This document shows, piece by piece, positions 19,737 to 20,160 of a DNA stretch of 21,425 nucleotides. The notes under the pieces were generated by a model that was not told the DNA's origin, did no database searches, and saw only the letters and a list, made by a program, of their open reading frames with translations. The stretch's first letter is position 1, and every line of letters begins with the position of its first letter. The stretch is taken from IMG/VR virus record IMGVR_UViG_2802429219_000008. One strand, written 5' to 3'. Source of the stretch: a virus. Taxonomy: Duplodnaviria; Heunggongvirae; Uroviricota; Caudoviricetes. A program made the translations under genes and the position numbers.

Positions 19737-20094
19737 TCACCATAACTGCTAACCATTCTGACCATTTCACAAGTGACAGAGTCAATATCGTATTCTGTCA
19801 CTGTCAGGCTAATACAGTACTGCAATTCAACTACAGCAATGCCTCGTATTTAGGTGAATTTACAATATCGTCCAGTTCGGATGCCGGCTGCATTTCTGAA
19901 GATAAGGCATTTCGGTTCTCGTATTTTCCCCTCATGCTCGTCAGTCCTGCGCGTAGTAAGAAACAGGACACTCACACTAATTTGTGTGGGCATGCTGTGA
20001 TGTCCTTCTGAATTATCCCCATGCCATTATGTAAAGCTCTGTTACAGATGCTCGTCACGGTTGTCAGGCTGTCGGGTCCTCCCAGTGGGGGGCC

Positions 20095-20160
20095 CTGCCA
20101 CGGGGCGGGAGCGTCGCGGAAAAAGACTAGTTTTTGCATTTCCATGGCGGCGGCAGCATG
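20095..20160. other. cos site (lambda-like cosN/cosB region)
   Basis: ACGGGGCGGGAGCGTCGCGGAAAAAGACTAGTTTTTGCATTTCC closely parallels the lambda left end GGGCGGCGACCTCGCGGGTTTTCGCTATTTATGAAAATTTTCC as I recall it. Lies ~195 bp upstream of the small-terminase start, as cos does relative to Nu1 in lambda. Confidence 0.5.

What the first reader, a model, noticed from the sequence alone, without database searches (positions are those of the whole stretch)
20060..20160. Lambda-like cos site upstream of the small terminase
The GC-rich segment ACGGGGCGGGAGCGTCGCGG followed by AAAAAGACTAGTTTTTGCATTTCC mirrors the lambda left end (GGGCGGCGACCTCGCGG then a T-rich cosB region) and sits ~195 bp before the small-terminase start, as in lambda. 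It marks the genome ends of the ancestral phage and places cspI, gnsB and the small unknown genes in the right-arm moron region between lysis genes and cos.
Basis: partly seen in the sequence, partly recalled or inferred. Interest (0 to 1): 0.4.

Follow-up and report, generated by a model that had tools for sequence, protein, structure and literature searches.

The report
Lambda-type cos site of a prophage
This is the ordinary DNA-packaging (cos) site of a lambda-like E. coli prophage, the place where the ancestral phage's genome was cut to make its sticky ends; here it is a relic, because an insertion sequence has cut the terminase gene next to it.

Summary
Window 20100-20119 (ACG|GGGCGGGAGCGT|CGCGG) matches lambda cosN at 16 of 20 positions. 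All four differences fall at cohesive-end positions 7, 8, 9 and 11, the half that varies naturally among lambda-like phages.

- **Deposited genome ends:** the records of phage cdtI and of the plaque-forming phage Tritos begin at window-equivalent 20103 and end at 20102.
- **cosQ:** the lambda heptamer GGGTCCT lies 22 bp upstream (lambda: 23 bp). It is invariant in 57 haplotypes, although the sequence to its left belongs to unrelated lineages.
- **I2-like spacer:** a poly-dA/poly-dT segment follows cosN.
- **IHF site:** a perfect IHF consensus lies at +64..+76 and is invariant.
- **Terminase genes:** terS starts at +197 (lambda Nu1: +191) and is followed by a lambda gpA-type terL.

- The A/T-rich segment called cosB corresponds to lambda I2. 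The specificity-determining cosB starts at about +37/+40.
- The small terminase is a DUF1441 protein, not a sequence-detectable Nu1 homologue. Its N-terminal domain is predicted to be a MerR-type winged helix-turn-helix.
- An IS21-family element truncates terL at 21298/21299, so the prophage cannot package itself.

This is a known kind of site and of low interest.

The parts
20074..20080 (+). cosQ-equivalent heptamer GGGTCCT, 22 bp before the top-strand nick (lambda: 23 bp)
   Evidence: It occurs once in the window. It is invariant in 57 unique haplotypes, while 12 of the next 17 bp vary and the sequence to its left falls into at least 6 unrelated lineages. It is identical to lambda 48473-48479. 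That this heptamer is cosQ comes from my own knowledge of Wieczorek & Feiss 2001; PMC4669245 states only that the 7-bp cosQ is highly conserved.
20101..20116 (.). cosN: CG + 12-bp cohesive-end sequence GGGCGGGAGCGT (20103-20114) + CG. Inferred nicks: top strand between 20102 and 20103, bottom strand between 20114 and 20115.
   Evidence: The cdtI and Tritos records start at GGGCGGGAGCGT and end at ...CCACG. It differs from lambda only at cohesive-end positions 7, 8, 9 and 11. It has 8 of 16 symmetric positions against 10 of 16 in lambda. It is invariant in 79 of 80 related loci. Natural variation confined to bp 7-12 and conserved flanking CG are described in PMC4669245.
20120..20136 (+). I2-like spacer with poly-dA and poly-dT tracts (AAAAAGACTAGTTTTTG), conserved across TerS specificity groups
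   Evidence: The motif CGCGGRAAAMGGCTAGTTTTT is kept in all relatives down to 56% TerS identity, and in mEp043 and mEp460. Lambda I2 spans bp 18-50 and has poly-dA/dT segments (PMC4856287).
20137..20165 (+). Candidate R3-equivalent, the proposed TerS recognition segment of cosB (CATTTCCATGGCGGCGGCAGCATGTTTGG), +35..+63
   Evidence: Homology with mEp460-type phages (TerS 42% identical) stops at +40. The DNA here falls into three sequence groups that track three variants of the predicted TerS recognition helix. The position matches lambda R3 at bp 48-65 (PMC9026076). This is an inference and has not been shown.
20166..20178 (-). IHF consensus TATCAATAAATTA (WATCAANNNNTTR), I1-equivalent, +64..+76
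   Evidence: The match is exact. None of its 13 positions varies in 57 haplotypes. The consensus is kept at exactly +64 on the same strand in relatives with 84, 81, 68 and 56% TerS identity. Lambda's I1-like match is also on the minus strand, at +79..+91.
20196..20205 (+). First copy of TTTTCACCTG, a possible R2-like TerS site (weak)
   Evidence: It is one of two exact copies in the window. CACCTG is at +98 in the window and in the 75% relative. However, 4 of its 10 positions are polymorphic among close relatives.
20273..20282 (+). Second copy of TTTTCACCTG, a possible R1-like site just upstream of the terS ribosome-binding site
   Evidence: CACCTG is at +174..+176 in five lineages, including the 56% relative.
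20299..20826 (+). terS, small terminase of the DUF1441 family. The start at 20299 is preferred (GGAG at 20289-20292); an alternative ATG lies at 20287.
   Evidence: Pfam DUF1441, E = 1.7e-44. The protein is 100% identical to the annotated small terminases of cdtI and Tritos. The predicted N-terminal domain is a MerR-type winged HTH.
20835..21298 (+). 5' fragment of terL (lambda gpA family), truncated
   Evidence: Pfam GpA_ATPase, E = 1.8e-36. Homology with intact prophages ends at window 21298.
21299..21425 (+). End of an IS21-family insertion sequence that interrupts terL
   Evidence: It is 99-100% identical to sequence annotated as IS21-family istA elements in 2385 E. coli genomes, mostly on plasmids.

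Best explanation
Window 20074 to about 20290 is the cos site of a lambdoid phage of the cdtI/Tritos/HannyBb type. Its layout is cosQ - cosN - I2 - cosB - terS - terL, as in lambda.

Inferred mechanism in the ancestral phage, by analogy with lambda:
1. The DUF1441 small terminase binds cosB through its N-terminal winged helix-turn-helix. IHF helps by bending the DNA at +64..+76.
2. This positions the gpA-type large terminase on cosN.
3. The large terminase nicks the top strand between 20102 and 20103 and the bottom strand between 20114 and 20115. The result is 12-nt 5' cohesive ends, GGGCGGGAGCGT.
4. Packaging proceeds rightward, starting with terS, along the concatemer.
5. At the next cos, cosQ (GGGTCCT) plus cosN trigger the terminating cut.

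As a consequence, the lysis genes and the cspI/gnsB moron block sit at the right end of the virion chromosome. In this genome the site is a relic, because terL is interrupted by an IS21-family element after codon ~155. The site could now be cut only by a terminase supplied in trans.

Shown here: the sequence features, their conservation, their coincidence with deposited genome ends, and the disruption of terL. Inferred: the exact nick positions, the 5' polarity and length of the overhang, IHF binding, and which cosB bases TerS contacts.
For: - **cosN:** 16 of 20 positions match lambda, with differences only at cohesive-end bp 7, 8, 9 and 11, and the CG flanks are kept. PMC4669245 says variation among lambda-like phages is confined to bp 7-12, while cosQ and the flanking CG are conserved. 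The pattern is unique in the window (0.01 expected).
- **Genome ends:** the cdtI record (AB285204.1) and the linear Tritos record (OV696610.1) begin at GGGCGGGAGCGT and end at ...CTGCCACG. Tritos forms virions and plaques (PMC9928086).
- **A sister cos type:** the LLS record annotates a '5' extended single-strand cohesive site GGGCGGCGCGCT' at the homologous position. The Hafnia phage yong2 record starts at +13.
- **cosQ:** GGGTCCT lies 22 bp upstream, is invariant, and sits at a mosaic breakpoint.
- **I2-like A/T tracts:**
- **IHF consensus:** exact, invariant, and positionally conserved at +64 in diverged relatives.
- **Terminase genes:** terS (DUF1441) starts at +197 and a gpA-family terL follows. 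The predicted TerS N-terminal domain is a MerR/Xis-type wHTH.
- **cosB specificity:** DNA at +40..+62 co-varies with the predicted recognition helix in three groups.
- **Window context:** positions 413-20834 are 98.5% identical to phage HannyBb, and the Tritos match ends exactly at 20102.
- **Relic status:** terL is cut by an IS21-family element.
Against: - I found no experimental determination of the ends for this exact cos. The Tritos paper does not say how the record ends were chosen. The LLS/mEp213 ends are explicitly 'inferred' or 'putative' (PMC12315714). The cdtI paper and Vahanian et al. 2017 are not in the held library.
- Generic alignment to lambda is only about 2 sd above null.
- TerS shows no significant sequence similarity to Nu1. 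Nu1's own structure was not among the 50-60 best matches listed in either fold search.
- No clear three-copy R-repeat is present. The first TTTTCACCTG copy is polymorphic, and the window's R3-position sequence lacks the CAGGTG seen in more distant relatives.
- The invariance of the cosN flanks among the 79 loci is partly by construction, because I located cosN with that pattern.
Confidence: 0.9

Rival explanations
1. It is the cos site, but the cut geometry differs from lambda: a different overhang length, or nicks shifted by one or a few bases. The true ends would then not be exactly 20102|20103 and 20114|20115.
For: Within the DUF1441-TerS family the spacing is not uniform. VT1-Sakai has 11 nt between ACG and CGCGG, Gifsy-2 has 14, and one subgroup has GAG instead of ACG at the left flank. 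The ends of the sister cos type (LLS/mEp213) are inferred, not measured. The mEp460_4F5 record starts 5 nt upstream and lacks 3 nt inside cosN.
Against: In this window the spacing between the conserved ACG and CGCGG flanks is exactly 12, as in lambda. Cohesive-end bases 1-6 and both flanking CG pairs are identical to lambda. Two depositors placed the ends at the same base. The yong2 record starts at +13, as expected for a 12-nt overhang that was trimmed.
Confidence: 0.07
2. It is a chance GC-rich resemblance to lambda cosN with no packaging function. The phage would use a site elsewhere, or headful (pac) packaging.
For: The Smith-Waterman score against lambda cos is only modestly above null. 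GGGTCCT alone is expected about 1.3 times per window, and three IHF consensus matches per window are not unusual.
Against: The combined pattern is unique. The elements are collinear and spaced as in lambda. They are invariant where their neighbours vary, and the same layout recurs in relatives down to 56% TerS identity and in Salmonella, Providencia, Klebsiella and Citrobacter elements. TerL belongs to the lambda gpA family, whose members make 5' cohesive ends (cited in PMC12315714). Phage records end here.
Confidence: 0.02
3. The segment encodes something else: a small protein (ORFs 20021-20176 + or 19972-20145 -, which some phage records annotate as 'hypothetical protein'), a transcription terminator, or a structured RNA.
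For: ORFs of 51 and 57 codons span the site. The HannyBb and mEp460_ev081 records carry hypothetical CDS features over it.
Against: No promoter-like or terminator-like site was found in 19700-20400. The RNA fold is not better than shuffles (z = -0.98). The conservation pattern is blockwise, DNA-motif-like, with a hypervariable 17-bp spacer and a mosaic breakpoint inside the putative ORFs. That pattern is incompatible with a conserved coding sequence.
Confidence: 0.01

Closest known systems
Bacteriophage lambda cos (cosQ-cosN-I2-cosB upstream of Nu1/A)
   Same: The order and spacing of the elements are the same. The cosQ heptamer GGGTCCT is identical (22 against 23 bp from the nick). Cohesive-end bases 1-6 and the CG flanks are identical. 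The cohesive-end interval is 12 bp. An A/T-tract spacer follows cosN. An IHF consensus lies on the minus strand between cosN and terS. terS starts at +197 against +191. TerL is of the gpA family.
   Different: Cohesive-end bases 7, 8, 9 and 11 differ (GAGCGT against CGACCT), and symmetry is 8 of 16 against 10 of 16. The cosB sequence is unrelated, with no lambda-type R3/R2/R1 repeats. The IHF site is about 15 bp closer to cosN. The small terminase is DUF1441, with no detectable sequence similarity to Nu1.
cos of phages cdtI (AB285204.1), Tritos (OV696610.1) and HannyBb (PP925841.1)
   Same: The TerS protein is 100% identical. cosQ, cosN and the cohesive-end sequence are identical, and cosB is 97-99% identical. 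The cdtI and Tritos records are opened exactly at this site.
   Different: Those are complete, and for Tritos demonstrably viable, phages. The element in the window has terL cut by an IS21-family insertion. cdtI has an unrelated right arm up to cosQ.
cos of mEp213/mEp043/LLS and mEp460 (lambdoid phages with DUF1441 TerS and Gifsy-2-like heads)
   Same: The cosQ-cosN-I2 layout is the same. mEp460 and PhiR40_1 have the identical cohesive-end sequence GGGCGGGAGCGT. LLS annotates a 12-nt 5' cohesive site at the homologous position.
   Different: TerS is only 41-42% identical, and cosB diverges from +40 onward, implying a different packaging specificity. The mEp043/LLS cohesive end is GGGCGGCGCGCT, and their terS starts at +130.
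PICI (phage-inducible chromosomal island) cos sites of E. coli
   Same: They have lambda-like cosQ and cosN followed by a non-lambda cosB-equivalent (PMC9026076).
   Different: PICIs carry rpp rather than terS/terL downstream and lack lysis and structural modules. Here cos is followed by terS and terL, and preceded by a complete lambdoid early/late/lysis arm that is 98.5% identical to a phage.

Membership tests
lambda-like cos site (sensu Feiss et al. [quoted passage not shown] | Cohesive-end sequence with significant identity to lambda GGGCGGCGACCT, with variation tolerated only in bp 7-12 | tested here: met
   GGGCGGGAGCGT is identical at 8 of 12 positions. Bp 1-6 are identical, and the differences are at 7, 8, 9 and 11. 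The criterion is from PMC4669245.
lambda-like cos site | Physical 12-nt 5'-protruding single-stranded ends on virion DNA | not testable with these tools
   The evidence is only indirect. The cdtI and Tritos records start and end here, the LLS record annotates an inferred 5' cohesive site, and the yong2 record starts at +13.
lambda-like cos site | Conserved 5'-CG-3' dinucleotides flanking both nick positions, and partial two-fold symmetry of the 16-bp cosN | tested here: met
   The 16-bp site is CG|GGGCGGGAGCGT|CG, with 8 of 16 symmetric positions against 10 of 16 in lambda. The features are described in PMC4669245 and PMC9026076.
lambda-like cos site | 7-bp cosQ about 20 bp upstream of cosN | tested here: met
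   GGGTCCT lies at 20074-20080, 22 bp from the nick. It is identical to lambda 48473-48479 and invariant in 57 haplotypes.
lambda-like cos site | I2 spacer (about bp 18-50) with poly-dA/poly-dT segments between cosN and cosB | tested here: met
   AAAAAGACTAGTTTTT lies at +18..+33 and is conserved across TerS specificity groups. The definition is from PMC4856287.
lambda-like cos site | cosB with TerS-binding R sequences (complex R3-I1-R2-R1, or simple single R3) starting about bp 48 | tested here: inconclusive
   No three-copy repeat was found. There are two TTTTCACCTG copies, the first of them polymorphic. The segment +40..+62 co-varies with the TerS recognition helix, consistent with an R3-equivalent. 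Binding was not tested.
lambda-like cos site | IHF site (I1) within cosB | tested here: met
   The consensus match at +64..+76 on the minus strand is exact, invariant and positionally conserved. IHF binding itself was not tested.
lambda-like cos site | Immediately upstream of terS-terL, with TerL of the lambda gpA family | tested here: met
   terS starts at +197. The terL fragment matches GpA_ATPase at E = 1.8e-36.
Nu1-type small terminase (lambda, 21, N15) | Sequence homology to gpNu1 | tested here: not met
   Pfam assigns DUF1441 only. BLASTP against Nu1 gives E = 4.6. There is no PDB sequence hit.
Nu1-type small terminase (lambda, 21, N15) | N-terminal winged helix-turn-helix DNA-binding domain followed by helical oligomerisation and TerL-binding regions | tested here: met

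The most novel reading that the evidence does not exclude
The DUF1441 small-terminase lineage may carry its own set of packaging specificities, read from a single R3-equivalent segment at about +40..+62. At least three DNA variants exist: GGCGGCRGCATG, GGGACACCACCAT and GATCGCATCAYCAGCAKGTG. They track three variants of the predicted recognition helix: HRDTVKKR, DRKAVKRR and DRATVRKR. An IHF site is fixed at +64. If so, the intact cos of this IS-inactivated prophage could still be cut and packaged in trans by any co-resident phage of the same specificity, such as a Tritos- or HannyBb-type phage. That would mobilise the defective prophage and adjacent DNA.
Probability: 0.4. Interest if true: 0.3.

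Novelty: already known. Interest (0 to 1): 0.15.

Why it matters
The practical value is for annotation.
- It fixes the ancestral virion genome ends at 20102|20103.
- It orients the prophage, with the right arm and moron block before cos and the packaging and head genes after it.
- It shows that the ORFs called across 19972-20176 in some phage records are probably spurious.
- Together with the IS21-family insertion in terL, it shows that the prophage cannot package itself.

More generally, it is one more natural example of the rule described by Feiss and colleagues: cosQ, the left half of cosN and the flanking CG pairs are fixed, while bp 7-12 and cosB drift. In this case the site is paired with a DUF1441 small terminase rather than a Nu1-type one.

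Tried and rejected
- **Strict local alignment of a 460-bp lambda cos segment against the window:** it returned a 17-bp chance match elsewhere. A shorter query with softer scoring found the site, but only about 2 sd above null. I therefore did not rely on generic alignment.
- **Literature search for the cohesive-end string and its complement:** it found no phage paper. Vahanian et al. 2017 and the cdtI paper are not held, so I could not establish whether these ends were measured.
- **Repeat finder on 20040-20330:** it gave only short A/T-rich pairs and no lambda-style R repeats. The TTTTCACCTG pair came from a direct pattern search, and I rate it as weak because the first copy is polymorphic.
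- **Terminator, promoter and RNA-structure readings:** rejected.
- **Sequence homology of TerS to Nu1 or to any solved structure:** none found. The fold searches gave domain-level wHTH matches only, with weak E-values, and the helical C-terminal part produced non-specific coiled-coil hits.
- **blastn 'distant' search with the 77-bp cosQ-cosN segment:** it found 32 phage records, all from the DUF1441-TerS group, but not lambda itself.
- **Locus L103 (TerS relative, 89% identical):** it has no cosQ or cosN upstream, so I left it out of the footprinting.

Full report
**Observation.** A 179-codon ORF starts at 20287. An internal ATG at 20299 is preceded by GGAG at 20289-20292. A second ORF starts at 20835. 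Pfam assigns the first to DUF1441 (E = 1.7e-44) and the second to the ATPase domain of lambda gpA-type large terminases (E = 1.8e-36). The lambda-derived pattern ACGGGGCGGNNNNNTCGCGG occurs once in the window, with about 0.01 matches expected by chance.

**Comparison with lambda.** I fetched both ends of NC_001416. Placed side by side, lambda reads ...GGGTCCT-N23-|GGGCGGCGACCT|CGCGGGTTTTCGC and the window reads ...GGGTCCT-N22-|GGGCGGGAGCGT|CGCGGAAAAAGAC.
- Cohesive-end bases 1-6, the CG before the top-strand nick and the CG after base 12 are identical.
- The four differences are at bases 7, 8, 9 and 11.
- Feiss et al. [quoted passage not shown] They report that natural variation is concentrated in bp 7-12 (N15 at 9 and 12; Gifsy-1 at 8, 9 and 11), while cosQ and the CG pairs flanking the nicks are conserved. 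The window fits this rule exactly.
- The 16-bp cosN has 8 symmetric positions, against 10 in lambda.
- A generic Smith-Waterman scan with lambda -35..+25 places its best + strand hit at 20073-20119, but the score is only about 2 sd above a Markov null. Alignment alone would not be convincing.

**Deposited genome ends.** A megablast of 19850-20400 against 50,697 phage records shows that phage cdtI (AB285204.1) and the linear record of phage Tritos (OV696610.1) begin at the base homologous to window 20103. Both start GGGCGGGAGCGTCGCGG and end ...CTGCCACG, which is the lambda numbering convention. Their small terminase is 100% identical to the window's.
- Tritos is a live prophage of E. coli LF82 that yields virions and plaques (PMC9928086). 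The paper does not say how the record ends were chosen.
- For the sister cos type, the LLS record annotates bases 1-12 as a '5' extended single-strand cohesive site GGGCGGCGCGCT'. The accompanying paper says this is inferred from the TerL family and from the putative mEp213 cos analysed by M. Feiss (PMC12315714).
- The Hafnia phage yong2 record starts at the base homologous to +13.
- These are independent pointers to the same cut site. None is a measurement I could verify.

**Conservation.** Of 80 IMG/VR loci encoding a TerS at least 99% identical, 79 carry ACG|GGGCGGGAGCGT|CGCGG. I analysed the 57 unique haplotypes.

| Segment | Variable positions |
|---|---|
| cosQ | 0 of 7 |
| 17-bp spacer after cosQ | 12 of 17 |
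| cosN core | 1 of 22 (flanks partly fixed by my search pattern; the five central bases were free) |
| IHF consensus | 0 of 13 |

The sequence left of GGGTCCT belongs to at least six unrelated lineages, so a mosaic breakpoint abuts cosQ.

I also compared more distant relatives with 84-56% TerS identity, from metagenomes and from Klebsiella, Citrobacter and Providencia, together with mEp043, mEp460, PhiR40_1 and VT1-Sakai. They all show the same layout: [GGGTCCY or GGTACTCC] - about 22 bp - [CCACG or CCGAG] | 12 nt beginning GGG | CGCGGRAAAMGGCTAGTTTTT.

**Sub-sites downstream of cosN.**
That homology stops at +40. In lambda the interval bp 18-50 is I2, a spacer with poly-dA/dT tracts needed for an early packaging step (PMC4856287). 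This segment is therefore I2-like, and cosB proper begins at about +37/+40.
- *IHF site.* An exact IHF consensus (TATCAATAAATTA, minus strand) lies at +64..+76. It sits at exactly +64 in relatives with 84, 81, 68 and 56% TerS identity. Lambda's I1-like match is also on the minus strand, at +79..+91, between R3 (+53) and R2 (+114).
- *Candidate R3-equivalent.* The DNA at +40..+62 falls into three groups that track three variants of the predicted TerS recognition helix. This is what an R3-equivalent would show, but the two are genetically linked, so it is not independent proof.
- *Possible further sites.* Two TTTTCACCTG copies lie at +94 and +171. They might be additional TerS sites, but the first copy is polymorphic.

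**The small terminase.** It has no significant sequence similarity to Nu1 or to any solved structure. An AlphaFold model built from 42 homologues has mean pLDDT 84.
- The N-terminal ~60 residues form a helix-strand-helix-helix-wing unit, followed by long helices.
- Foldseek matches this domain to the MerR-type winged HTH proteins RacA, BldC and TnrA (probability 0.9-0.99) and to a phage TerS DNA-binding domain, 7lwr (probability 0.85).
- This is the same class as the Nu1 DNA-binding domain (my knowledge: de Beer et al. 2002). The protein therefore plausibly works like Nu1 without being a detectable member of that family.

**Context and state.** Window 413-20834 is 98.5% identical to phage HannyBb, and the Tritos match ends exactly at 20102. 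In Tritos, the Rz, cspI, cold-shock, ynfN, gnsB, ybcV and ybcW genes lie between the lysis genes and the right genome end. In the window, cspI (18172-18387) and gnsB (within 18969-19235) occupy the same block. Homology to intact prophages stops at 21298. The remaining 127 bp are 99-100% identical to IS21-family elements. terL is thus truncated after about 155 codons, and the cos site is a relic unless a terminase is supplied in trans.

**Rivals.** No promoter-like or terminator-like site lies in 19700-20400, and the RNA fold is no better than shuffles. The ORFs overlapping the site are crossed by a hypervariable spacer and a mosaic breakpoint, so they are unlikely to be genes. The main residual uncertainty is the exact cut geometry. 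Relatives show 11 nt (VT1-Sakai) or 14 nt (Gifsy-2) between the conserved flanks, and no end measurement was available.

**Verdict.** This is a bona fide lambda-type cos site: cosQ 20074-20080, cosN 20101-20116, an I2-like spacer, and cosB with an IHF site extending to about 20285. It is identical to the site at which the cdtI and Tritos genome records are opened. It is a known kind of element and is correctly interpreted, so it is of low interest. The modest added value lies in the sub-site map, the I2/cosB correction, the DUF1441 TerS fold, and the finding that an IS21-family insertion has disabled the prophage.

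Noticed in passing
window 21299-21425: An IS21-family insertion sequence (istA end) interrupts the large terminase gene after about 155 codons. Homology to intact prophages stops at 21298. The same IS end occurs in 2385 of 5426 complete E. coli genomes, mostly on plasmids.
   Followed up: partly
window 20287-20301: There are two candidate terS start codons. cdtI annotates the ATG equivalent to 20287, and Tritos the one equivalent to 20299. Only 20299 has a Shine-Dalgarno sequence (GGAG at 20289-20292, 6-nt spacer), and most homologues start at MSNVS/MTNVS.
   Followed up: partly
window 19972-20176 (both strands): ORFs of 57 and 51 codons run across cosQ and cosN. The HannyBb and mEp460_ev081 records annotate 'hypothetical protein' CDS over the homologous cos region. 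These are probably spurious gene calls.
   Followed up: partly
L087 (LR597641.1, mEp460_ev081) about 870-1112; L098 (LR595868.1, mEp460_4F5) 1-20: The ev081 record shows an approximately 110-bp direct duplication of the I2/cosB segment near its end. The 4F5 record starts 5 nt before the nick and lacks 3 nt (TCG) inside cosN. Both look like assembly artefacts at cohesive ends.
   Followed up: no
L091 (VT1-Sakai) 439-490; L089 (Gifsy-2) about 480-540; L100, L101, L108: cosN varies within the DUF1441-TerS family. VT1-Sakai has 11 nt and Gifsy-2 has 14 nt between the conserved ACG and CGCGG flanks. A subgroup (TerS 84, 75 and 67% identical) has CCGAG instead of CCACG left of the nick, which breaks the 'conserved CG' rule. 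Many relatives have GGTACTCC in place of the cosQ heptamer GGGTCCT.
   Followed up: partly
L103 (JGI 3300025728, TerS 89% identical) 900-1200: This close relative keeps the terS-proximal part of cosB (TTATTAGACCAGT...TCACCTGCCAG), but has no cosQ, cosN or I2 within 300 bp upstream, and the upstream genes are on the opposite strand. Its cos has apparently been lost or rearranged.
   Followed up: no
L097 (OM373202.1, Cylindrospermopsis phage Cr-LKS3) 1-40: A cyanophage with a DUF1441 TerS (38% identical) has a record that starts GGGCTCGCGCGCGGAAGTCGGCAGTTTTTCGG. This resembles the enterobacterial cosN-I2 motif (GGGC...CGCGG-N5-GGC-N3-TTTTT), which suggests the motif is very old within this terminase lineage.
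   Followed up: no
window 20227-20239: The block TCATTAGACCAGT, at +125..+137 within cosB, is conserved in relatives with 89, 84 and 81% TerS identity, although its flanks diverge. Its function is unknown; it could be another terminase contact.
   Followed up: no
L101 569-817: In one relative, a gene with an Acb2/Tad1-hairpin domain (an anti-CBASS/Thoeris sponge family) occupies the moron slot just upstream of cos. This shows how variable the cargo is at this position.
   Followed up: no
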